Shown here piece by piece: positions 3,288 to 13,065 of a stretch of 64,000 bases of DNA. Origin of the DNA: Escherichia coli (GTDB lineage Bacteria; Pseudomonadota; Gammaproteobacteria; Enterobacterales; Enterobacteriaceae); assembly GCF_050920415.1 (NCBI RefSeq), contig NZ_CP169309.1. One strand, given 5' to 3'. Under the pieces are notes generated by a model. That model was not told where the DNA came from. It saw nothing but the letters and a program-made list of their open reading frames with translations, and did no database searches. The translations under genes were made by a program, and so were the position numbers. Position 1 is the stretch's first letter. Every line of letters starts with the position of its first letter.

Positions 3288-4511
3288 TCAATGCGCATGG
3301 GTAGCACTTTCAGAGCGCATCCGCTCCAGTGCGCCAGAAATATTGGCTTCAGAATCAATCAGGAACAGGCCGCTGGAAACCACCTTTTCACCTTCCGCCA
3401 GACCAGAACGTAGCGCGGTGACGCCTTGCGACGCCTGGAAAACAGCAACGCGTTTCGGTACAAAGCGCCCGTCGGCATCAACGGTAATCACCCGCTGTTC
3501 GTTACCAGTATCAATCAGTGCCTGTGACGGAATGAGCAGCATCGGTTCGCTGGCGGTGTTGAGTTGCAACCAGGCGTTCATTCCCGGTTTTAGCGCCTCG
3601 TCGGCGTTGTCGACTTCCAGACGCAGTTGTAGCGTGCGGGTCGCGGCATCCACGCCAGGTAGCAGCGTCCATTTGCGGATGGTGAGTGTTTTATCCGGTC
3701 GTGCCGGAACGGTGAGCGTAAACTGCGAGGCATCTTTCACCAGCCAGGCGATGGACTCCGGGATCGCAGCAGTGACCCACACCGGGTCCATACCCTGAAT
3801 TTTCGCTACCACGTTATCTTTGGCGATATTCATTCCCGCGCGCAGATCAAACGCAGTGATCACGCCATCAATAGGGGCTTTGAGCGTAAAGCGAGTCTGG
3901 ATTTTTTGCGTGGTAATCAGGCGGCGAATATCGGCCTCCGGCATTCCCGCCAGTCTCAGCCGCTCAAGAATGCCTTCAGTCTGGGTCGCCGTCCCGCCGG
4001 TTTCGCGCAGCAGTAAATACTCACTCTGCGCTTCCACCCAGTCGGGAATGGTCAGGTCGAGAAGCGGTGTGCCCTTTTGCACTTTATCGCCCACGGTGAG
4101 CGGATACACCTTGTCGATAAACCCGGCGGCGCGGGCCTGCACAATGGCAAACTGATACTCGTTGTAACTCACATTCGCTGGGAAACTCTGGGCAAAAGTC
4201 AGCGGCCCGCGCGTGACGGTCGCCGTTTTCACCCCCAGATTTTGCGTCTGGGTCGGGTCAATGCGCACACCAGACGCAGAACTCTCTTCATCGGCATATT
4301 TCGGCACCAGATCCATATCCATAAACGGCGATTTACCTGGTTTATCGAACCGCGTATTGGGATACATTGGGTCGTACCAGAATAAGACTTTACGTTCTGC
4401 GGTCGACGTTTTTTCTGCGGGCGGTTCAGCCTTTGCAAACCAGGTAAAACCTGCCGCAGAAATAATACCGCCCGCGATCATGCTGCCGATAATAAGCGCG
4501 ATTTTTTTCAT
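3288..4511 (-). CDS. cusB: Copper/silver efflux membrane fusion protein CusB
   Basis: 407-aa ORF, signal-anchor N-terminus, between cusF and cusA as in the known operon. Confidence 0.95.
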   Translation of the reverse strand: MKKIALIIGSMIAGGIISAAGFTWFAKAEPPAEKTSTAERKVLFWYDPMYPNTRFDKPGKSPFMDMDLVPKYADEESSASGVRIDPTQTQNLGVKTATVTRGPLTFAQSFPANVSYNEYQFAIVQARAAGFIDKVYPLTVGDKVQKGTPLLDLTIPDWVEAQSEYLLLRETGGTATQTEGILERLRLAGMPEADIRRLITTQKIQTRFTLKAPIDGVITAFDLRAGMNIAKDNVVAKIQGMDPVWVTAAIPESIAWLVKDASQFTLTVPARPDKTLTIRKWTLLPGVDAATRTLQLRLEVDNADEALKPGMNAWLQLNTASEPMLLIPSQALIDTGNEQRVITVDADGRFVPKRVAVFQASQGVTALRSGLAEGEKVVSSGLFLIDSEANISGALERMRSESATHAH

Positions 4512-4526
4512 CTCATTAAACCTGGG

Positions 4527-4859
4527 TTACTGGCTGACTTTAATATCCTGTAATAAAGAAAGGTTGCCCTGCTGGACAAAATTAAACGCTACTTTGTCGC
4601 CAGTTTTAATTTCACTCATTTTCGTCTGCGGGGTGATGGTAAAGCGCATGGTCATCTCCGGCCAGTTCACTGCGGCAATCGGATCGTGGTGGATGGTGAT
4701 TTTTTTGCTTTCCAGATCAACACCTTTTACCACACCGGTGGCGCTAATAACCTGTGGTTGTGCTTCGCTCATGGTTTCATGATGATGTTCGTTAGCCTGA
4801 GCATTAAAGCCAATAACAGTAAACAGACTGAACATTGCAACTTGCAGTGCTTTTTTCAT
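4527..4859 (-). CDS. cusF: Periplasmic copper/silver chaperone CusF
   Basis: 110-aa ORF with signal peptide (MKKALQVAMFSLFTVIGFNAQA), His/Met-rich metal-binding region; operon position. Confidence 0.95.
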   Translation of the reverse strand: MKKALQVAMFSLFTVIGFNAQANEHHHETMSEAQPQVISATGVVKGVDLESKKITIHHDPIAAVNWPEMTMRFTITPQTKMSEIKTGDKVAFNFVQQGNLSLLQDIKVSQ

Positions 4860-4882
4860 TTATTCTCTCCTGGAGTTAAAAA

Positions 4883-6265
4883 TTATTGCTGCCAACCGCC
4901 ACCCAGGGCGGTATATAAGGAAACTTCGTTAACCTGACGGGCATAATTCAGGTCGAGTAAAGTTTGTCGGGTTGCAAATAAGGAACGCTCGGCATCCAGC
5001 ACTTCCAGATAACTTACCGCGCCGTGCTGATATAATGCCCGCGCCCGTTGCAAAGTAATTTGCAGCGACGCCAGATAACGCTGCTGGGCGCTGATTTGAT
5101 CGTTCAGGCTTTGACGTAATGCAAGCGCATCTGCCACTTCTTTAAAGGCGTTCTGAATTTTCTGTTCATAATTCACCACCGACTGCTGCTGGCGAATTTC
5201 GGCGATATCCAGATTGGCCTGGTTGCGTCCGGCATTAAAAATGGGGATCTCAATTTTGGGAATAAAATTCCACATCCCGCTGCTGGCGTTAAATAATGAT
5301 GACAGATCGCTGCTGGCGGTTGATATTCCACTGGTCAGGCTTATAGACGGGAAAAATGCCGCACGCGCAGCACCAATATTGGCATTAGCCGCCATTAACG
5401 CGTGTTCAGCTTCCATAATATCCGGGCGCTGCAATAAGATTTGCGACGACAAGCCCGCCGGTAATTTAACGCTTTGCAGGCTGTCGCTGTTTACTGTCTG
5501 CGCTTGCGGCAGCTTGCCGTAGTTTCCCAATAACAGTTGCAATGCATTATTCGCCTGCGCCAGTTCCCCCTGACGTTTAGCGATATCACTGCGGGTACTT
5601 TCTATCACCCCGCGAGCCTGTTCCAGCGCCAGAACATTGCTGCTACCGGTCAACAGTTGTTTTTCAACAAACGCATATGACTGCTGATAATTACGCAGCG
5701 TTTCTTCTGCTATTTGTAATTGCGCATAAGCCAGCTGCTGATTGAAATAGCTTTGCGCGACATTAGAAACCAGCAGAATATGCACCGCACGCTGAGCTTC
5801 CTCAGTGGCTAAATAATTTTGTCGCTCGGCTTCGCTCATGTTCTTTAAGCGACCGAAAAAATCGAGATCAAAGCTGGCGTTAAGGCCAGTCGAGAACTCC
5901 CGCGTCGTGGCTGAATCGCCTTTAAGATTGCCGCTCCAGCTGCCGCTACCCTCGCCATTGAGCTGCGGGTAGCGGTCGGCATCGGTCAGACGATATTGCG
6001 CCCGTGCCTCCTGCACTTTCAGCGTCGCCATGCGCAAATCCCGATTATTCACCAGCGCCTCGCTAATCAGCGTCTTCACCTGATTATCAACAAAAAAGGT
6101 GCGCCAGCCCGCGTTCTGGTAGTTATCTACCGCGTTAACCAGGCCGTTCTGGCTGAGTGAGAACTGCTGCGGCACGGGCATTGCCGGACGCTGATATTCC
6201 GGTGCCAGTGAACAACCGGTTAGCGCAAGGGCCACACAAAATGGCAGAAGTTTACAAGGAGACAT
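4883..6265 (-). CDS. cusC: Outer-membrane efflux channel CusC (TolC family lipoprotein)
   Basis: 460-aa ORF with lipobox (LALTGCSL); first gene of cusCFBA, divergent from cusRS. Confidence 0.93.
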   Translation of the reverse strand: MSPCKLLPFCVALALTGCSLAPEYQRPAMPVPQQFSLSQNGLVNAVDNYQNAGWRTFFVDNQVKTLISEALVNNRDLRMATLKVQEARAQYRLTDADRYPQLNGEGSGSWSGNLKGDSATTREFSTGLNASFDLDFFGRLKNMSEAERQNYLATEEAQRAVHILLVSNVAQSYFNQQLAYAQLQIAEETLRNYQQSYAFVEKQLLTGSSNVLALEQARGVIESTRSDIAKRQGELAQANNALQLLLGNYGKLPQAQTVNSDSLQSVKLPAGLSSQILLQRPDIMEAEHALMAANANIGAARAAFFPSISLTSGISTASSDLSSLFNASSGMWNFIPKIEIPIFNAGRNQANLDIAEIRQQQSVVNYEQKIQNAFKEVADALALRQSLNDQISAQQRYLASLQITLQRARALYQHGAVSYLEVLDAERSLFATRQTLLDLNYARQVNEVSLYTALGGGWQQ

Positions 6266-6334
6266 AGGCTCATAATTTCTGGTGATTTTATGCCGCCAAC
6301 TTTACTCGCCAGGCTCTGATTTTCCGGTGACAGG

Positions 6335-6356
6335 AAAATGACAAAATTGTCATTTT
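6335..6356. promoter_or_regulatory. CusR box: perfect 22-bp palindrome AAAATGACAA-AA-TTGTCATTTT in the cusC/cusR divergent promoter region
   Basis: Perfect inverted repeat read directly in the 156-bp intergenic region between divergent cusC and cusR; matches the known CusR operator. Confidence 0.85.
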
Positions 6357-6421
6357 GCCAATAAGCGATTGCCATCTGATCCCGCTACTCTAGAATTGCC
6401 CGGGCAACATGCGGAGGAAAT

Positions 6422-7105
6422 ATGAAACTGTTGATTGTCGAAGATGAAAAGAAAACCGGCGAATACTTAACCAAAGGGTTAACCGAGGCCGGTTTTGTGG
6501 TTGATTTGGCCGATAACGGGCTGAATGGATACCATCTGGCGATGACAGGTGATTATGACCTGATAATCCTAGATATTATGCTGCCGGACGTGAACGGCTG
6601 GGATATCGTGCGTATGTTGCGTTCCGCCAATAAAGGGATGCCGATTCTGTTGCTTACCGCGCTTGGCACCATTGAACATCGCGTCAAGGGGCTGGAGCTG
6701 GGAGCGGATGACTATCTGGTGAAGCCGTTCGCTTTTGCTGAACTGCTGGCGCGGGTGCGCACTCTACTGCGTCGCGGGGCGGCGGTGATTATCGAAAGTC
6801 AGTTTCAGGTTGCCGATTTAATGGTTGATCTGGTCAGCCGCAAAGTCACCCGCAGCGGCACGCGCATCACTTTGACCAGTAAAGAGTTTACTCTGCTGGA
6901 GTTTTTCCTTCGCCATCAGGGCGAAGTGCTGCCCCGCTCGCTTATCGCCTCGCAGGTGTGGGACATGAATTTCGACAGCGACACTAACGCCATTGATGTG
7001 GCGGTGAAGCGGCTGCGCGGCAAAATCGACAACGACTTTGAGCCGAAGCTGATTCAAACCGTGCGCGGCGTGGGTTACATGCTTGAGGTGCCGGATGGTC
7101 AGTAA
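6422..7105 (+). CDS. cusR: Two-component response regulator CusR (OmpR family)
   Basis: 227-aa ORF; receiver-domain N-terminus ([16 protein letters not shown]), winged-helix C-terminus; precedes and overlaps cusS. Confidence 0.97.
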
Positions 7106-8543
7106 GCCGTTTCAGCGCCCGTTTTCGCTGGCAACCCGCCTGACCTTTTTTATTAGCCTGGCCACCATCGCGGCGTTTTTCGCCTTTGCATGGATCATGA
7201 TCCACTCAGTAAAAGTGCATTTTGCCGAGCAGGATATTAATGATTTAAAAGAGATTAGCGCCACACTTGAACGGGTACTTAATCACCCTGACGAAACGCA
7301 AGCCCGACGCTTAATGACGCTGGAAGATATTGTCAGTGGTTATTCCAATGTGTTGATTTCTCTGGCAGATAGCCACGGTAAAACGGTGTATCACTCCCCC
7401 GGCGCGCCGGATATCCGCGAGTTTGCACGTGATGCCATACCCGATAAAGACGCTCGGGGCGGCGAGGTGTATCTCCTTTCCGGCCCGACAATGATGATGC
7501 CAGGCCACGGTCACGGGCATATGGAACACAGCAACTGGCGGATGATTAACTTGCCGGTTGGCCCGCTGGTGGACGGCAAACCGATTTATACGCTCTACAT
7601 CGCGCTGTCTATTGATTTTCATCTTCATTACATTAATGATTTGATGAATAAACTTATTATGACCGCATCGATCATCAGCATCCTGATCGTCTTTATCGTG
7701 CTGTTGGCGGTACATAAAGGCCACGCGCCAATTCGCAGCGTCAGCCGTCAAATCCAGAACATTACCTCGAAAGATCTCGACGTTCGCCTCGATCCACAGA
7801 CCGTGCCCATTGAACTGGAACAACTGGTGCTGTCGTTCAACCATATGATCGAGCGTATCGAGGATGTCTTTACCCGCCAGTCCAATTTCTGTGCGGATAT
7901 CGCCCACGAAATTCGCACGCCGATTACGAATCTCATAACGCAAACGGAAATCGCCCTCAGCCAGTCGCGCAGCCAGAAGGAGCTGGAAGATGTGCTCTAC
8001 TCTAATCTCGAAGAGCTGACGCGAATGGCGAAAATGGTCAGCGATATGCTGTTTCTCGCTCAGGCCGATAACAACCAGTTAATCCCCGAAAAGAAAATGC
8101 TCAACCTGGCGGATGAAGTTGGTAAAGTGTTCGATTTTTTCGAGGCGTTAGCGGAAGATCGCGGCGTAGCACTACGGTTTGTTGGCGACAAATGTCAGGT
8201 TGCGGGCGATCCGCTGATGCTGCGTCGGGCGCTAAGCAACCTGCTTTCTAACGCCCTGCGTTATACGCCGCCCGGAGAGGCAATTGTAGTGCGCTGTCAA
8301 ACGGTCGATCACCAGGTGCAAGTTACCGTCGAAAACCCCGGTACGCCCATTGCGCCCGAGCACTTACCGCGTTTGTTTGACCGTTTCTACCGCGTTGATC
8401 CTTCCCGCCAGCGAAAAGGTGAAGGTAGCGGTATTGGTCTGGCGATAGTGAAATCAATTGTTGTCGCGCATAAAGGCACGGTTGCGGTAACGTCAGATGC
8501 GCGGGGGACAAGGTTTGTTATCGGGCTACCGGAGAGGGAGTGA
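7095..8543 (+). CDS. cusS: Copper/silver sensor histidine kinase CusS
   Basis: ORF track starts at 7083; the start matching CusS ([10 protein letters not shown]..., 482 aa) is the ATG at 7095, overlapping the cusR stop. H-box [10 protein letters not shown] present. Confidence 0.95.
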
Positions 8544-8758
8544 TTGGTCAGATAATGCAGTGGATGTTAATTGAATTGAGAATTAGCTATTTCGTCACGA
8601 GAAAAAGCGTAAAATCCGTTTCGTGCAGATGGTGAGTTTTATCAGGGTATGGCGGTAGCGCAACTGCCTTCGGATAATATATATAGTGTGAATGTATACC
8701 CCAGATAACTTCACCATCCAAATATATTCTTGAGATTAAAATATCGTATATTAATCGT

Positions 8759-9238
8759 ATGGGTGAAAATCCTGTTAATATTTTAACGAATCATGAGTAC
8801 TATAAAGTGGAAAAAATCATAGAACAGATAAAACCATTTTGGACAAAATATGATTCTTTGTCAGAAAAAGATATGATGTTGTTAGAGTCCAATTTCACGC
8901 ATCGTTTTCCAGAAGATATGAAAGAGTTTTTTCTGTGGTCTAACGGTGGAGCAGGTAAATTTCACAATATTTACATTTCCTTGTGGCCATTAGACGAAAT
9001 CAAGGAATTAAATGATGGTTATTTAATCAATCATTATCTAGGTGAACAGTTCATGGCTTTTGGTTCTGATGGTGGGCCGATATGTTTTTTACTGGATTAT
9101 CGTAATCCAGAACACACCAGAATATCTTCCGTAAATTTTGGTGACCTGGATATAGCTGAAGTAAAACAAATAGCAATTTCATTCGATGTTTTTTTAGAGT
9201 TGGCAGGAAATGGAGAAATTATAAGTAATAATTTATAA
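8759..9238 (+). CDS. Hypothetical protein with SUKH-1 (SMI1/KNR4)-like immunity-protein motifs
   Basis: 159-aa ORF in AT-rich DNA; motifs FPEDMKEFFLWSNGG and AFGSDGGPICFLLD resemble the SMI1/KNR4 family. No convincing Shine-Dalgarno upstream. Confidence 0.45.
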   Translation: MGENPVNILTNHEYYKVEKIIEQIKPFWTKYDSLSEKDMMLLESNFTHRFPEDMKEFFLWSNGGAGKFHNIYISLWPLDEIKELNDGYLINHYLGEQFMAFGSDGGPICFLLDYRNPEHTRISSVNFGDLDIAEVKQIAISFDVFLELAGNGEIISNNL

Positions 9239-9367
9239 TCAAGTAATTTCCCCTCACGCTGGCGATTGTCGTGGAATGCAGCGAAATTAATTTTATGAAT
9301 AATAAAGTATTAGGGCAGGATTAAGACATAAGATACGGATAAAATTCTCATATACAAAGGATTACGA

Positions 9368-9914
9368 ATGGCAACTGCAAGGATAAATGTTTTTTGCACG
9401 AATGAAGAGCTGTCTGATTGGCTCGCTATTATAGCCTCAAAGTATCAATTACATTCGATTTGGTTTGCGCTACAAGATGAATACTCTCAACAACTAAATA
9501 TTTTAACAGAAAAAAATCCCTGTTGTAGCATATCGAATTTATCTTATGCCCAGCATTAAATCTAACAATAGAAAAATAAAGTTTAGTAGCATTGATCGTT
9601 GTTGTGGTTGGATTGAAATAAAACCGGGGCATTTAGTTGAGCATAACGGGGCAAAGATGTTACAACTTACTGAAATTAACACTACTGATTCTGAGAATAA
9701 ATTAATATGTTTATGCAAAGCCATTAACTGGCTTAAACGACAGATTAAAACCAATGAATTTTCCGGTGTAACGGGAAAGAATAAAATTTATGGTGGAGAA
9801 ACTATTCACCCTCATATTTTCTATACGCATCAAGCCAAATCTCTTTTTTATGATAAAGTAATATGGAAACAAGACTTCCTATTCAATTCTGTATATGAGC
9901 CATTTATTTCATAG
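9368..9914 (+). pseudogene. Two overlapping small ORFs (63 aa and 122 aa) in different frames; possibly one frameshifted gene
   Basis: ORFs 9368-9559 and 9546-9914 overlap by 14 nt in different frames within the AT-rich islet; no recognisable domain. Confidence 0.25.
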
Positions 9915-10386
9915 TTTTCAGCAAACAATATTAACCACGATGAATATGACTAAAAAAGAAGCATTAGCATTCCTTGCTCTAAATCACCCTATGCCTAATG
10001 ATTATGACATCACACAGGAACTTATCAATAAATATGACGACGTAAGACTTTATTTTTGTGCAAATCCTGCTGAAGAGGCTATCCCATTATTTTTACAATC
10101 CTTTGGGGAAGGTGATGGCTTAGGAGTATATCAGTTGGTTGAAGATTTTTTGTTTAAATGTGATGAAAATATTGTAGTATCCAATATAGCCAGCATACTG
10201 GAAAATCCTCTGACAATAAAAAGCGTCCGATATTGGTGTACATTATTGGCAATGGCTTTCCCGGATAACATCTTAATTAAAGGATTAAATATTTCTCTAC
10301 ATTCTGATGATGAGGATACTCGAGACATGGCTATGTTAAGTTTAAAGATGATTACAGAGGAATATAAAACATTTGAATTCCAATAA
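9895..10386 (+). CDS. Hypothetical protein in AT-rich islet (163 aa; alternative start at 9940)
   Basis: Open frame, same strand as neighbouring small ORFs, low GC; no recognised domain. Confidence 0.4.
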   Translation: MSHLFHSFQQTILTTMNMTKKEALAFLALNHPMPNDYDITQELINKYDDVRLYFCANPAEEAIPLFLQSFGEGDGLGVYQLVEDFLFKCDENIVVSNIASILENPLTIKSVRYWCTLLAMAFPDNILIKGLNISLHSDDEDTRDMAMLSLKMITEEYKTFEFQ

Positions 10387-10827
10387 TTCCCCCTTGCATA
10401 AAAGATCACCATCATGACAAAAACACAAGCAAAGTTGCTTATTTATAAAGCATTTGTTATTTTAACGTTCTTTATTTCCTGGTTGAATATTAAACTTAAT
10501 TAATCTAAAGAGAAATGAAGTTAGCCTTCCTGTACCCACAGCAACGCCGTCTTTTTGTTCAGCACGGGGAAAATGTTCTCCCCTGCTCACCTCCTCCAGG
10601 CACTTCCACAACATGATGACCTGATCGGTTGCCGCCTATCCTCCTCACTATGACCTTCACCTCCGCGCTTTTGTCTACATTCTACACAATCGGCAACTTT
10701 TATAACCAGTGTAAAAATAACGTGCCGCAATAATCCTACCTATTAATGATAAAAAGCTGTCACAATTCATAAAAAACTTTAATATACGCCACCCTAAACA
10801 TAACCAGCGTTAATGTAAGGTTTTTGT

Positions 10828-13065
10828 GTGGACTGGCTTCTTGATGTTTTTGCAACCTGGCTCTACGGCTTAAAAGTAATCGCGATAACGTTAGCGGTCA
10901 TCATGTTCATCAGCGGGCTGGACGATTTTTTTATTGATGTCGTCTACTGGGTACGCCGCATTAAACGCAAGTTGAGTGTTTATCGCCGCTACCCGCGAAT
11001 GAGTTACCGCGAACTGTATAAACCAGATGAAAAACCGTTAGCGATTATGGTTCCGGCGTGGAATGAAACGGGCGTCATCGGCAATATGGCCGAGCTGGCG
11101 GCGACCACGCTCGACTATGAAAACTATCATATCTTTGTTGGCACCTACCCCAACGACCCAGATACTCAGCGTGATGTTGACGAAGTGTGCGCTCGCTTCC
11201 CAAACGTGCATAAGGTAGTCTGCGCGCGTCCTGGCCCCACCAGTAAAGCCGACTGCCTGAACAATGTGCTGGACGCCATCACCCAGTTTGAGCGTAGCGC
11301 CAATTTCGCTTTTGCTGGTTTTATTCTGCATGACGCCGAAGACGTAATTTCACCGATGGAATTGCGTCTGTTCAACTATCTGGTCGAGCGTAAAGATCTG
11401 ATTCAGATCCCGGTATACCCATTCGAACGCGAATGGACGCACTTCACCAGCATGACTTACATTGATGAGTTTTCAGAACTGCATGGCAAAGATGTTCCGG
11501 TGCGTGAAGCCCTCGCCGGACAAGTGCCCAGCGCAGGCGTCGGCACCTGTTTCAGCCGCCGCGCCGTGACTGCACTGTTAGCTGACGGTGACGGTATCGC
11601 TTTCGACGTGCAGAGTCTGACTGAAGATTACGACATTGGTTTCCGCCTGAAAGAAAAAGGTATGACGGAAATTTTTGTCCGTTTTCCGGTGGTGGACGAA
11701 GCCAAAGAACGCGAGCAGCGTAAATTTTTACAGCACGCGCGGACATCAAACATGATCTGCGTGCGCGAATATTTCCCCGATACCTTTTCAACGGCGGTTC
11801 GGCAAAAGTCTCGCTGGATTATCGGCATTGTTTTCCAGGGCTTTAAAACCCATAAATGGACCTCCAGCCTGACACTCAACTACTTTCTCTGGCGTGACCG
11901 CAAAGGGGCAATCAGTAACTTTGTCAGCTTCCTCGCGATGCTGGTGATGATCCAGCTTTTGCTGTTGCTGGCGTATGAAAGTTTCTGGCCCGATGCCTGG
12001 CATTTCCTTTCTATTTTTAGCGGCAGCGCATGGTTAATGACCCTGCTGTGGCTAAACTTTGGCCTGATGGTTAACCGTATCGTACAGCGGGTGATTTTCG
12101 TCACTGGCTACTATGGCCTGACGCAGGGGCTGTTATCTGTCCTGCGTCTTTTCTGGGGCAACCTGATTAACTTCATGGCCAACTGGCGCGCGTTAAAACA
12201 GGTACTTCAACACGGCGATCCACGTCGTGTCGCGTGGGATAAAACAACGCATGACTTCCCCAGCGTGACTGGCGATACCCGCTCGTTGCGTCCGTTAGGT
12301 CAAATCCTGCTGGAAAATCAGGTCATCACTGAAGAACAACTCGATACAGCACTGCGTAATCGCGTCGAAGGTCTACGCCTGGGCGGTTCAATGCTGATGC
12401 AGGGGCTGATTAGCGCCGAGCAGCTGGCACAGGCGCTAGCAGAGCAAAACGGCGTGGCGTGGGAGTCCATCGATGCCTGGCAGATCCCTTCTTCGCTGAT
12501 TGCCGCGATGCCGGCCTCCGTGGCGCTGCATTATGCGGTGCTACCGCTGCGTCTGGAAAATGATGAGTTAATTGTCGGCAGTGAAGATGGTATTGACCCG
12601 GTTTCGCTGGCAGCCCTGACGCGTAAAGTCGGACGCAAAGTGCGTTACGTCATTGTTCTGCGTGGACAAATTGTCACGGGGTTACGTCACTGGTATGCAC
12701 GCCGACGCGGTCACGATCCGCGGGCAATGTTGTACAATGCGGTTCAGCATCAGTGGCTCACGGAACAGCAGGCCGGTGAAATCTGGCGGCAATATGTGCC
12801 GCATCAGTTCCTGTTCGCCGAAATACTGACCACGCTCGGTCATATTAATCGTTCAGCAATTAACGTGTTGTTATTGCGCCATGAACGCAGTTCTCTGCCG
12901 CTCGGCAAGTTTTTGGTCACCGAAGGCGTTATCAGCCAGGAAACGTTGGATCGCGTCCTGACAATTCAACGCGAATTACAAGTTTCGATGCAATCACTAT
13001 TACTCAAAGCAGGTTTAAACACAGAACAGGTTGCGCAACTGGAGTCCGAAAATGAAGGAGAATAA
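10828..13065 (+). CDS. nfrB: NfrB, inner-membrane family-2 glycosyltransferase (phage N4 adsorption protein B)
   Basis: 745-aa ORF with GTG start; translation matches E. coli NfrB (MDWLLDVFATWLYGLKVIAITLAV...). Confidence 0.95.
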   Translation: MDWLLDVFATWLYGLKVIAITLAVIMFISGLDDFFIDVVYWVRRIKRKLSVYRRYPRMSYRELYKPDEKPLAIMVPAWNETGVIGNMAELAATTLDYENYHIFVGTYPNDPDTQRDVDEVCARFPNVHKVVCARPGPTSKADCLNNVLDAITQFERSANFAFAGFILHDAEDVISPMELRLFNYLVERKDLIQIPVYPFEREWTHFTSMTYIDEFSELHGKDVPVREALAGQVPSAGVGTCFSRRAVTALLADGDGIAFDVQSLTEDYDIGFRLKEKGMTEIFVRFPVVDEAKEREQRKFLQHARTSNMICVREYFPDTFSTAVRQKSRWIIGIVFQGFKTHKWTSSLTLNYFLWRDRKGAISNFVSFLAMLVMIQLLLLLAYESFWPDAWHFLSIFSGSAWLMTLLWLNFGLMVNRIVQRVIFVTGYYGLTQGLLSVLRLFWGNLINFMANWRALKQVLQHGDPRRVAWDKTTHDFPSVTGDTRSLRPLGQILLENQVITEEQLDTALRNRVEGLRLGGSMLMQGLISAEQLAQALAEQNGVAWESIDAWQIPSSLIAAMPASVALHYAVLPLRLENDELIVGSEDGIDPVSLAALTRKVGRKVRYVIVLRGQIVTGLRHWYARRRGHDPRAMLYNAVQHQWLTEQQAGEIWRQYVPHQFLFAEILTTLGHINRSAINVLLLRHERSSLPLGKFLVTEGVISQETLDRVLTIQRELQVSMQSLLLKAGLNTEQVAQLESENEGE

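What the first reader, a model, noticed from the sequence alone, without database searches (positions are those of the whole stretch)
8544..10827. AT-rich 2.3-kb islet of tandem small ORFs between cusS and nfrB, including a SUKH/SMI1-KNR4-like protein: possible orphan immunity-gene cluster
GC content drops sharply between the cusS stop and the nfrB start. The islet carries three or four same-strand small ORFs with weak ribosome-binding sites; the first has the paired motifs of SUKH-1 immunity proteins, and two overlapping ORFs look like one frameshifted gene. This is the pattern of orphan immunity arrays left by polymorphic-toxin loci (Rhs/CdiA type), but no toxin gene is present.
Basis: partly seen in the sequence, partly recalled or inferred. 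Interest (0 to 1): 0.55.

Follow-up and report, generated by a model that had tools for sequence, protein, structure and literature searches.

The report
Orphan Rhs immunity genes, cusS–nfrB
The AT-rich stretch between cusS and nfrB is a rare, toxin-less, partly decayed array of three antidote ("immunity") genes sitting at a long-known E. coli Rhs toxin hotspot, so it is a good example of a known phenomenon, not a new kind of system.

Summary
Window 8544-10827 is 31-35% GC against about 50-55% in the flanks. It carries three same-strand genes. ORF1 (8807-9238) is a SUKH-1/SMI1-KNR4 protein (Pfam E=5e-12). ORF2 (9368-9914) is one 181-aa gene broken by an extra A in a poly-A run. ORF4 (9946-10386) is a small HEAT-like repeat protein.

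The cusS-nfrB gap is the published "position 4", the sole clade IV rhs locus of E. coli. Of 5,426 complete genomes, about 2,326 have it empty. About 2,355 carry the vgrG-type junction that precedes vgrG-chaperone-Rhs-immunity-ISAs1 islands in the genomes inspected. About 160 carry a relative of this islet, and only 4 carry this compact form.

Each of the three genes has a relative encoded directly after an Rhs toxin C-terminus:
- ORF1: 49% identical, after a VgrG-linked Rhs with a Tox-SHH tip in Pseudomonas.
- ORF2: 33% identical, after an 1856-aa RHS protein.
- ORF4: 66% identical, after an Rhs fragment in E. coli WW2.

Escherichia albertii has the same genes in the same order at the same site. 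ORF1 and ORF4 show purifying selection (dN/dS 0.12-0.19). ORF2 has been inactivated three independent ways in E. coli.

Verdict: an orphan polyimmunity remnant, a new member of a known kind, of low to moderate interest.

The parts
7083..8543 (+). cusS (left flank, core gene); PGAP start corresponds to 7095
   Evidence: ORF list; annotated as CusS in the 100% identical record NZ_CP169399.1.
8544..8806 (+). Non-coding left arm of the islet. Positions 8546-8776 are found in 160 of 5,426 E. coli genomes, and sequence to about 8754 is shared with E. albertii.
   Evidence: blastn maps; census; no ORF and no Rhs-tip remnant; no Rfam family.
8807..9238 (+). ORF1: SUKH-1 / SMI1-KNR4 immunity-type protein, 143 aa from GTG 8807 (an upstream ATG at 8759 would give 159 aa). 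Intact.
   Evidence: Pfam PF09346 E=5.4e-12 and PF14568 E=6e-6. Homologs are 143-146 aa. 49% identical (BLASTP 9e-49) to P0064, encoded 4 bp after a VgrG-linked 1560-aa Rhs with a Tox-SHH tip. dN/dS 0.18-0.19 against E. albertii.
9239..9367 (+). Spacer and cassette junction. E. albertii has an extra 151-aa gene inserted here (junction at window 9328-9337).
   Evidence: blastn maps against L023 and L022; gene tables.
9368..9914 (+). ORF2: pseudogene of a 181-aa protein from an un-named family (no Pfam). The +1 frameshift is in the poly-A run 9510-9516 (A7 instead of A6), which splits it into 63-aa and 122-aa ORFs.
   Evidence: Alignment to intact copies. Family of 108 representatives, all 36-271 aa and mostly about 170-210 aa, none part of a large protein. 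No Pfam hit. AF2 pLDDT 92. Member P0094 (33% identical, 2e-29) lies 9 bp after an 1856-aa RHS protein.
9946..10386 (+). ORF4: 146-aa HEAT-like alpha-solenoid, an immunity-type protein (an upstream ATG at 9895 would give 163 aa). Intact here, but K71stop in the sister strain N96.
   Evidence: Homologs carry PF13646 HEAT_2. The family profile hits alphaRep/HEAT at 1e-35 and YibA at 1.3e-4. AF2 model all-alpha, pLDDT 88. A 66% identical paralog overlaps the stop of an Rhs C-terminal fragment by 4 bp in E. coli WW2. A 47% identical homolog sits in an Imm44-SUKH-x-HEAT array. dN/dS 0.12.
10387..10452 (+). Right cassette junction. E. albertii has CdiI_N and 130-aa genes between about 10372 and 10453. 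The L006-type E. coli island has a 940-bp insert with a 142-aa ORF at 10452/10453.
   Evidence: blastn maps; gene tables.
10453..10827 (+). Conserved nfrB upstream region, with ragged right boundaries of the variable zone. Homology resumes at 10582, 10634, 10663, 10667 or 10687 in other genomes. In three of these (10582, 10634, 10663) it resumes next to an ISAs1 end; 10667 follows an Rhs pseudogene fragment and 10687 is the empty site.
   Evidence: blastn maps; annotations.
10828..13065 (+). nfrB (right flank, core gene)
   Evidence: ORF list; annotation.

Best explanation
The islet is a toxin-less array of three Rhs-type immunity genes, a small heterogeneous 'polyimmunity' or orphan-immunity array. 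It occupies the variable cusS-nfrB hotspot, which in many other E. coli holds a T6SS-linked vgrG-chaperone-Rhs toxin island.

Proposed mechanism (inferred, not shown): each small cytoplasmic protein binds and blocks one specific toxin domain carried at the C-terminus of an Rhs protein that neighbouring bacteria inject through a type VI secretion system. A cell that keeps the antidote without the toxin would survive attack by strains that carry it.
- ORF1 (SUKH-1) most likely neutralises a Tox-SHH-type (HNH/EndoVII-fold) nuclease tip.
- ORF4 (HEAT-like) most likely neutralises the roughly 115-residue tip found upstream of its WW2 paralog.
- ORF2 would have neutralised an un-named Rhs tip but is dead in this strain because of the frameshift.

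The array is old: it is shared, in order and position, with E. albertii. ORF1 and ORF4 were kept by purifying selection, but the array is now eroding in E. coli.

Shown here: composition, gene structure, domain families, locus history, the immunity-position relatives, and the selection and decay statistics.
Inferred: toxin binding, the protective role, and current expression.
For: Composition and gene structure.

ORF1 is SUKH-1.

The site is published rhs position 4, clade IV, with displaced tips: PMC2935791.

The same spot in other genomes holds:
- vgrG, a DcrB-related gene, Rhs, an immunity-position gene, an orphan Rhs fragment and ISAs1
- vgrG plus a truncated island
- an Rhs pseudogene fragment
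- nothing

Census of 5,426 complete genomes: 2,326 empty, 2,355 with the vgrG-type junction, 160 with a relative of this islet, 4 with the compact form.

Immunity-position relatives:
- ORF1 and P0064, 4 bp after an Rhs with a Tox-SHH tip
- ORF2 and P0094, 9 bp after an 1856-aa RHS protein whose end matches TIGR03696
- ORF4 and its WW2 paralog, overlapping the stop of an Rhs C-terminal fragment by 4 bp

Company kept by relatives:
- E. albertii arrays add CdiI_N and DUF4303 genes.
- L020 has an Imm44-SUKH-x-HEAT array.
- Pseudocitrobacter has SMI1 directly followed by the ORF4 homolog.

HEAT-type precedent: the HEAT-repeat gene yibA lies 20 bp after rhsA in K-12, followed by Rhs fragments and a frameshifted Imm57 gene. 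HEAT repeats are listed as an immunity class, and polyimmunity loci are defined, in PMC3482391.

Purifying selection: dN/dS 0.12-0.19, with dS 0.41-0.47 against E. albertii, comparable to nfrB at 0.61.

Published statement that orphan immunity may protect against non-self Rhs effectors: abstract of PMC10539506, as listed.
Against: - No experiment or expression data exist. No convincing promoter or terminator was found: 5 promoter-like sites against 10.7 expected by chance.
- ORF2 is a pseudogene in the window (A7), in 2017-02-2CC (A8) and in the roughly 155-genome lineage (W81stop). ORF4 has a nonsense mutation in the nearest relative, N96. This points to relaxed selection now.
- ORF4 itself has no Pfam hit. 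ORF2 has no annotated relative at all.
- Several relatives of ORF2 and ORF4 sit in contexts with no toxin or immunity signal. The VgrG-linked L016 neighbour of an ORF4 homolog looks like a response-regulator receiver, not a toxin.
- 33-66% identity to immunity-position relatives does not fix toxin specificity.
- No E. coli complete genome has a recognisable ORF1 copy next to a toxin.
Confidence: 0.8

Rival explanations
1. Inert relic. The genes are of immunity origin, but the array is silent (an AT-rich island, probably H-NS repressed) and drifting towards loss in this lineage, with no protective role today.
For: - Three independent inactivations of ORF2 in E. coli: A7, A8 and W81stop.
- ORF4 carries K71stop in the 99.9% identical sister islet of N96.
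- The compact islet is in only 4 of 5,426 genomes, and 2,326 genomes have lost everything at the site.
- No above-chance promoter signal.
Against: - ORF1 and ORF4 are intact here. Their dN/dS of 0.12-0.19 over dS of about 0.4 shows long-term constraint.
- Among the four islet copies, ORF1 differs by 0-2 non-synonymous changes.
- The array has persisted at this site in both E. coli and E. albertii.
Confidence: 0.4
2. ORF2-ORF4 is a self-contained toxin-antitoxin or toxin-immunity pair, with ORF2 the toxin and ORF4 its antidote, rather than two independent immunity genes.
For: ORF2 and ORF4 are always adjacent, 27-33 bp apart, in E. coli and E. albertii. ORF2 is the gene that is repeatedly inactivated, as often happens to toxin genes.
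Against: - All 108 ORF2-family representatives are short (36-271 aa) and none is fused to a delivery domain.
- A family member sits in the immunity slot after a full RHS protein with no ORF4-like gene following.
- ORF4 homologs occur without ORF2 in Hafnia, Klebsiella, Pseudocitrobacter and E. coli WW2. A family HMM finds no ORF2 relative in those loci.
Confidence: 0.05
3. An unrelated horizontally acquired islet: an anti-phage defence cassette next to the phage N4 receptor genes nfrBA, or housekeeping SUKH/HEAT proteins such as Syd-like regulators.
For: The islet is AT-rich and accessory, and it lies directly upstream of nfrB-nfrA. SUKH and HEAT folds also occur in non-immunity proteins (general knowledge of the superfamilies).
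Against: - No PADLOC family matches any of the three proteins even at E<=1. Only a weak hit to an unknown-function PHROG was found, and there is no NCBIfam hit.
- The site is occupied by Rhs/VgrG islands in other strains, and the nearest informative contexts are all Rhs immunity slots.
Confidence: 0.04

Closest known systems
E. coli clade IV rhs locus at 'position 4' (nfrB-cusS), Jackson et al. 2009, BMC Genomics 10:584 (PMC2935791)
   Same: Exactly the same chromosomal site. Downstream of the main rhs gene that locus carries displaced C-terminal tips with their small downstream genes and ISAs1 elements. One copy of the islet (R32_14_1F) is followed by an ISAs1 pseudogene.
   Different: The window has no vgrG, no Rhs core, no Rhs tip fragment and no ISAs1. 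Only the small downstream-type genes remain.
Heterogeneous polyimmunity loci (Zhang, de Souza, Anantharaman, Iyer, Aravind 2012, Biol Direct 7:18; PMC3482391)
   Same: Tandem same-strand genes of structurally unrelated immunity families (SUKH, HEAT-like and an un-named alpha/beta family). The array is not interrupted by toxin cassettes, and its content differs between strains of one species.
   Different: Only three genes, one of them dead, whereas 'extended' loci have four or more. It lies inside a polymorphic-toxin hotspot instead of being a separate locus. No adjacent recombinase was seen in the window.
E. coli K-12 RhsA element: rhsA-yibA-(Rhs fragment)-yibG-(Rhs fragment)-Imm57(frameshifted)
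   Same: A HEAT-repeat protein (YibA) lies immediately after the Rhs toxin. A downstream trail of orphan modules ends in a frameshifted immunity gene. The ORF4 family profile detects YibA at E=1.3e-4.
   Different: K-12 retains the full rhsA and the Rhs tip fragments. YibA is 280 aa and only distantly related. Its immunity role rests on position, which I did not verify in the literature.
Orphan immunity genes protecting against non-self T6SS effectors (e.g. Serratia Rhs NADase immunity, PMC10539506; gut Bacteroidales orphan immunity, PMC12247911)
   Same: Immunity genes kept without the cognate effector, proposed or shown to protect against incoming toxins.
   Different: Those cases have experimental support. 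Here protection is inferred only, and the array shows decay.

Membership tests
SUKH-1 / SMI1_KNR4 (PF09346) - ORF1 | Significant, near full-length match to the family profile | tested here: met
   i-E 5.4e-12, model 3-124 of 125; also SUKH_6 at 6.3e-6. RefSeq names the identical protein 'SMI1/KNR4 family protein'.
SUKH-1 / SMI1_KNR4 (PF09346) - ORF1 | Use as a toxin immunity protein: encoded directly downstream of a polymorphic toxin C-terminal domain | tested here: met
   Not so in the window itself. The 49% identical P0064 starts 4 bp after an Rhs with a Tox-SHH tip (PF15652), next to vgrG, in three Pseudomonas contigs.
Polyimmunity locus (Zhang et al. 2012) | Tandem, same-orientation immunity genes with short spacers | tested here: met
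   Three + strand genes with spacers of 129 and 31 bp.
Polyimmunity locus (Zhang et al. 2012) | Never interrupted by toxin genes or toxin cassettes | tested here: met
   No Rhs-tip similarity (one Tox-SHH tip tested) and no other ORF of at least 60 aa on the + strand.
Polyimmunity locus (Zhang et al. 2012) | Gene content varies between strains of a species | tested here: met
   Cassettes are gained or lost at 9328-9337 and 10372-10453 when compared with E. albertii and the L006-type E. coli island.
Polyimmunity locus (Zhang et al. 2012) | [quoted passage not shown] | tested here: not met
   Three genes here. E. albertii relatives have 6-7.
Rhs element (clade IV, position 4) | Location between nfrB and cusS | tested here: met
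Rhs element (clade IV, position 4) | Presence of an rhs core gene (YD repeats, TIGR03696 core end) with or without vgrG | tested here: not met
   No ORF longer than 163 aa lies between 8544 and 10827. Rhs and vgrG are present at this site only in other genomes.
HEAT-repeat proteins (PF13646 HEAT_2) - ORF4 | Match to the HEAT-like repeat profile and an alpha-solenoid fold | tested here: met
   ORF4 alone has no Pfam hit at E<=10. However, homologs of 40-51% identity carry PF13646. The family profile hits alphaRep/HEAT chains at 1e-35. The AF2 model is eight helices, and the best Foldseek hits are alphaRep with weak E-values.
Immunity protein (functional class) - all three genes | Binds and neutralises a cognate toxin domain | not testable with these tools
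   This needs co-expression, pull-down or competition assays.
Anti-phage defence systems (PADLOC-DB) | Match to any defence-system protein model | tested here: not met
   0 families for all three proteins at E<=1.

The most novel reading that the evidence does not exclude
ORF2 would represent an undescribed, phylogenetically widespread family of Rhs immunity proteins. The family has these properties:
- about 180 aa, alpha/beta
- conserved R-x-W-G-W-I-D-I-x-P-G and G-V-x-G-x-N...W-K-Q motifs
- no Pfam model

The SMI1-ORF2-HEAT array would then be a toxin-less immunity set maintained at one chromosomal site since before the E. coli / E. albertii split. That would be long-lived 'defensive-only' immunity rather than debris from a recent toxin loss.
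Probability: 0.4. Interest if true: 0.4.

Novelty: new member of a known kind. Interest (0 to 1): 0.3.

Why it matters
The finding adds a clean, well-bounded example of how a polymorphic-toxin hotspot decays, from vgrG-Rhs island to immunity-only array to empty site.

It shows that immunity-only arrays can persist with purifying selection across a species boundary. That bears on whether orphan immunity genes are selected for defence against neighbours' T6SS toxins.

It gives testable toxin assignments for two intact genes: ORF1 against Tox-SHH-type Rhs tips, and ORF4 against the tip seen in E. coli WW2.

It flags an unannotated protein family (ORF2) as a candidate new immunity family.

It does not change any general concept, because the locus, the gene class and the phenomenon are all already described.

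Tried and rejected
- NCBIfam on all four ORFs: no hits.
- PADLOC: none. PHROGs: one weak hit to an unknown-function family for ORF1. Defence-system and phage-gene readings dropped.
- Rfam on 8300-11000: only a sub-threshold snoR127 hit (30.7 bits against a gathering score of 37) on AT-rich sequence. Treated as chance.
- Promoter and terminator scan: fewer promoter-like sites than in shuffles, so uninformative.
- Search for a toxin remnant upstream of ORF1 (six-frame read plus tblastn with one Tox-SHH tip): nothing.
- ORF2 family:
  - No Pfam hit for the sequence or for 61 members.
  - No PDB sequence hit.
  - AFDB50 gives only 'uncharacterized protein' relatives.
With a 12-sequence subset it returned a single locus I already had.
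  - Contexts of P0087 and P0088 were uninformative.
- ORF4 homolog contexts in Klebsiella and in soil contigs: no toxin nearby. The VgrG-linked L016 context looked promising, but the 253-aa upstream neighbour is a receiver-domain-like protein, so I do not count it.
- Pfam on the L033 Rhs tip: no family.
- Similarity between the WW2 tip and the Pseudomonas Tox-SHH tip: only a shared HH(A/I)IQDA heptad, BLASTP E=0.045, not significant.
- My first cusS 3' dN/dS calculation was out of frame and is discarded ('cusS3' rows).
Full report
**1. What is in the sequence**

Between the stop of cusS (8543) and the start of nfrB (10828), GC content drops from 0.52-0.58 to 0.31-0.35 and then recovers to about 0.5.

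The + strand carries these ORFs:
- 8759/8807-9238
- 9368-9559 and 9546-9914, which overlap
- 9895/9946-10386

A 100% identical RefSeq record (E. coli MFDS1022581, NZ_CP169399.1) annotates them as 'SMI1/KNR4 family protein', 'hypothetical protein' (the 122-aa piece) and 'hypothetical protein'. They lie between cusS and nfrB.

No Rfam family, above-chance promoter signal or convincing terminator was found.

**2. The three genes**

ORF1:
- It matches SMI1_KNR4 (SUKH-1, PF09346) over the whole model at E=5.4e-12, and SUKH_6 at 6e-6.
- Its homologs are 143-146 aa, which favours the GTG start at 8807.

ORF2:
- The two overlapping ORFs are one gene. Intact 181-aa copies exist in E. coli R32_14_1F and in E. 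albertii.
- The window has A7 at 9510-9516 where intact copies have A6.
- Strain 2017-02-2CC has A8.
- The lineage of about 155 genomes that carries the larger island has a TGG-to-TGA change at the nearly invariant W81.
- ORF2 has therefore been inactivated in three independent ways within E. coli.

The ORF2 family:
- It has 108 representatives at E<=1e-3 in 1.84 billion cluster representatives. All are 36-271 aa, and most are about 170-210 aa.
- It has no Pfam model.
- The AlphaFold model is confident (pLDDT 92, pTM 0.88).
- AFDB50 returns more than 140 'uncharacterized' structural relatives; those listed are mostly about 170-200 aa and come from many phyla.

ORF4:
- It has no Pfam hit on its own.
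- Homologs of 40-51% identity carry HEAT_2 (PF13646).
- A profile of the family hits HEAT-like alphaRep chains at 1e-35 and E. coli YibA at 1.3e-4.
- The model is an eight-helix solenoid with pLDDT 88.

**3. The site**

Jackson et al. 2009 (PMC2935791) list nfrB/cusS as rhs 'position 4'. It is the only clade IV rhs locus of E. coli, and C-terminal tips displaced from the main gene accumulate downstream of it.

I confirmed this in complete genomes:
- KN13-4 has vgrG, a DcrB-related gene, a 4.8-kb Rhs, a 129-aa gene in the immunity position, an Rhs fragment and ISAs1 at the site.
- GPEC349-628 has vgrG, a truncated DcrB-related gene and a truncated ISEc1.
- MB19 has only an Rhs pseudogene fragment.
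- ST131 and K-12 have nothing.

A census with junction probes over 5,426 complete genomes gave:
- 2,326 with the empty junction
- 2,355 with the vgrG-type left junction
- 160 with the window-type left arm
- 4 with the compact SMI1-ORF2-ORF4 islet

The other roughly 155 genomes with the window-type arm include EAEC 042. They share both ends of the islet plus ORF2 and ORF4 at about 90% identity. In place of ORF1 they hold about 8 kb containing two WD40/BNR-like genes, a PAAR-like gene, ISAs1 copies and a SUKH-3 gene.

**4. Are these immunity genes?**

Each gene has a relative in the canonical slot directly after an Rhs toxin C-terminus.

ORF1:
- P0064 is 49% identical (BLASTP 9e-49).
- It starts 4 bp after a 1560-aa, vgrG-adjacent Rhs whose tip is Tox-SHH (PF15652), in Pseudomonas.
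- In two further contigs it follows Tox-SHH fragments.

ORF2:
- P0094 is 33% identical (BLASTP 2e-29).
- It starts 9 bp after an 1856-aa RHS-repeat protein whose end matches the Rhs-associated core TIGR03696, followed by a roughly 190-aa tip with no Pfam family.

ORF4:
- 22 E. coli genomes have a paralog that is 72.5% identical in nucleotides and 66% in amino acids.
- In strain WW2 it overlaps by 4 bp the stop of an IS3-truncated Rhs C-terminal fragment (TIGR03696, then a roughly 115-aa tip). This lies in the yeeO/tRNA-Asn island.

Relatives also keep immunity-type company:
- E. albertii arrays at the same cusS-nfrB site read SMI1, 151 aa, (DUF4303), ORF2, ORF4, CdiI_N and 130 aa.
- One genome has an array of Imm44, SUKH, a 172-aa gene and the ORF4 homolog.
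- Pseudocitrobacter has SMI1 directly followed by the ORF4 homolog.
- In K-12, the HEAT-repeat gene yibA lies 20 bp after rhsA. It is followed by Rhs fragments, yibG and a frameshifted Imm57 gene.
- Zhang et al. 2012 (PMC3482391) list HEAT repeats among immunity classes. They define heterogeneous polyimmunity loci by features this islet shows: tandem genes, same strand, no toxin cassettes, and variation between strains.

**5. History and selection**

The islet aligns to E. albertii at 84-88% identity, similar to the flanks (86% and 89%). Cassette-sized differences lie at window 9328-9337 and 10372-10453.

| Comparison | dS | dN/dS |
|---|---|---|
| ORF1 vs E. albertii | 0.42-0.44 | 0.18-0.19 |
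| ORF4 vs E. albertii | 0.41-0.47 | 0.12-0.18 |
| First 300 codons of nfrB vs E. albertii | 0.61 | 0.02 |

The array is therefore about as old as the species split. Its intact genes were under purifying selection.

Recent decay is also evident. ORF2 is dead in most E. coli copies, and ORF4 carries K71stop in N96, whose islet is otherwise 99.9% identical.

Within E. coli, ORF4 alleles are much more divergent (dS 0.21-0.32) than the adjacent nfrB (dS 0.057). I note this but cannot explain it beyond old allelic lineages or recombination.

**6. Mechanism and status**

The best-supported reading is an orphan (poly)immunity array. Each protein would bind one Rhs-delivered toxin domain and protect the cell from T6SS attack by strains that carry that toxin.
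- ORF1 most likely pairs with a Tox-SHH-type nuclease tip.
- ORF4 most likely pairs with the WW2-type tip.
- ORF2 is non-functional here.

Family membership, locus identity, positional homology and selection are shown. Binding, protection and expression are inferred. Whether the array still works or is a silent relic cannot be decided with these data.

**7. Rivals**

- A defence-system or otherwise unrelated islet is disfavoured: there are no PADLOC hits and the informative contexts are Rhs-related.
- ORF2 as a toxin with ORF4 as its antidote is disfavoured. ORF2-family proteins are never fused to delivery domains, one sits in an immunity slot, and ORF4 homologs occur without ORF2.

**8. Novelty**

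The hotspot, the gene class and the concept of toxin-less immunity arrays are all published, and the genes are annotated in RefSeq.

What is new is modest:
- this particular rare array and its conservation in E. albertii
- toxin assignments for ORF1 and ORF4
- ORF2 as a candidate unnamed immunity family

I rate it a new member of a known kind, with interest 0.3.

Noticed in passing
L006 (NZ_CP023142.1) 3782-12001; same site as window 8777-9345: About 155 E. coli genomes, including EAEC 042, carry a different island of about 8 kb at the cusS-nfrB site. It holds an 84-aa ORF, two 346-aa WD40/YVTN/BNR-like proteins, a PAAR-like protein, a 336-aa and a 92-aa hypothetical protein, an ISAs1 pseudogene, a SUKH-3 gene, a 66-aa ORF and ISEc1. 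After that come ORF2 (W81stop), ORF4 and a further 142-aa gene. It looks like a PAAR-linked effector module, distinct from the vgrG-Rhs island.
   Followed up: partly
window 9510-9516 (and the equivalent in L007, L008, L036): The poly-A run inside ORF2 is A6 (intact), A7 (window, N96) or A8 (2017-02-2CC) among islets that are 96-100% identical. This could be slippage-prone homopolymer variation or homopolymer assembly error. I cannot tell which.
   Followed up: partly
L036 (E. coli N96), equivalent to window 10156: The nearest relative of the window's islet has a single A-to-T change that turns ORF4 codon 71 into a stop. This is a sign of ongoing decay of the array.
   Followed up: yes
window 9946-10386 versus 10828-11727: Within E. 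coli, ORF4 alleles differ at dS 0.21-0.32, while the first 300 codons of the adjacent nfrB differ at dS 0.057 in the same genome pairs. The islet alleles are much older than the right flank. The 3' end of cusS is also divergent (about 94% nucleotide identity).
   Followed up: no
L037 (E. coli WW2) 8510-12015: The yeeO/tRNA-Asn island has a trail of Rhs C-terminal fragments, each followed by a small gene. The first small gene is the ORF4 paralog. The tip upstream of it contains HHAIQDA, reminiscent of the SHHIIQDA motif of the Pseudomonas Tox-SHH tip, but the overall similarity is not significant (BLASTP E=0.045).
   Followed up: partly
L006 14436-16673 and L002 4777-7014: nfrB, which belongs to the phage N4 adsorption pair nfrBA, is annotated as a pseudogene with an internal stop in CFSAN061770 and MB19.
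   Followed up: no
L009/L010 (Hafnia alvei) 7419-10432: The Hafnia ORF4 homolog ends a run of six small same-strand ORFs (63, 90, 157, 195, 141 and 143 aa) with no Pfam hits, next to a large autotransporter gene. It may be another unannotated immunity-type array.
   Followed up: no
window 9457-9561 (-): A sub-threshold Rfam hit to the eukaryotic snoR127 (30.7 bits against a gathering score of 37). It is almost certainly an artefact of AT-rich sequence.
   Followed up: yes
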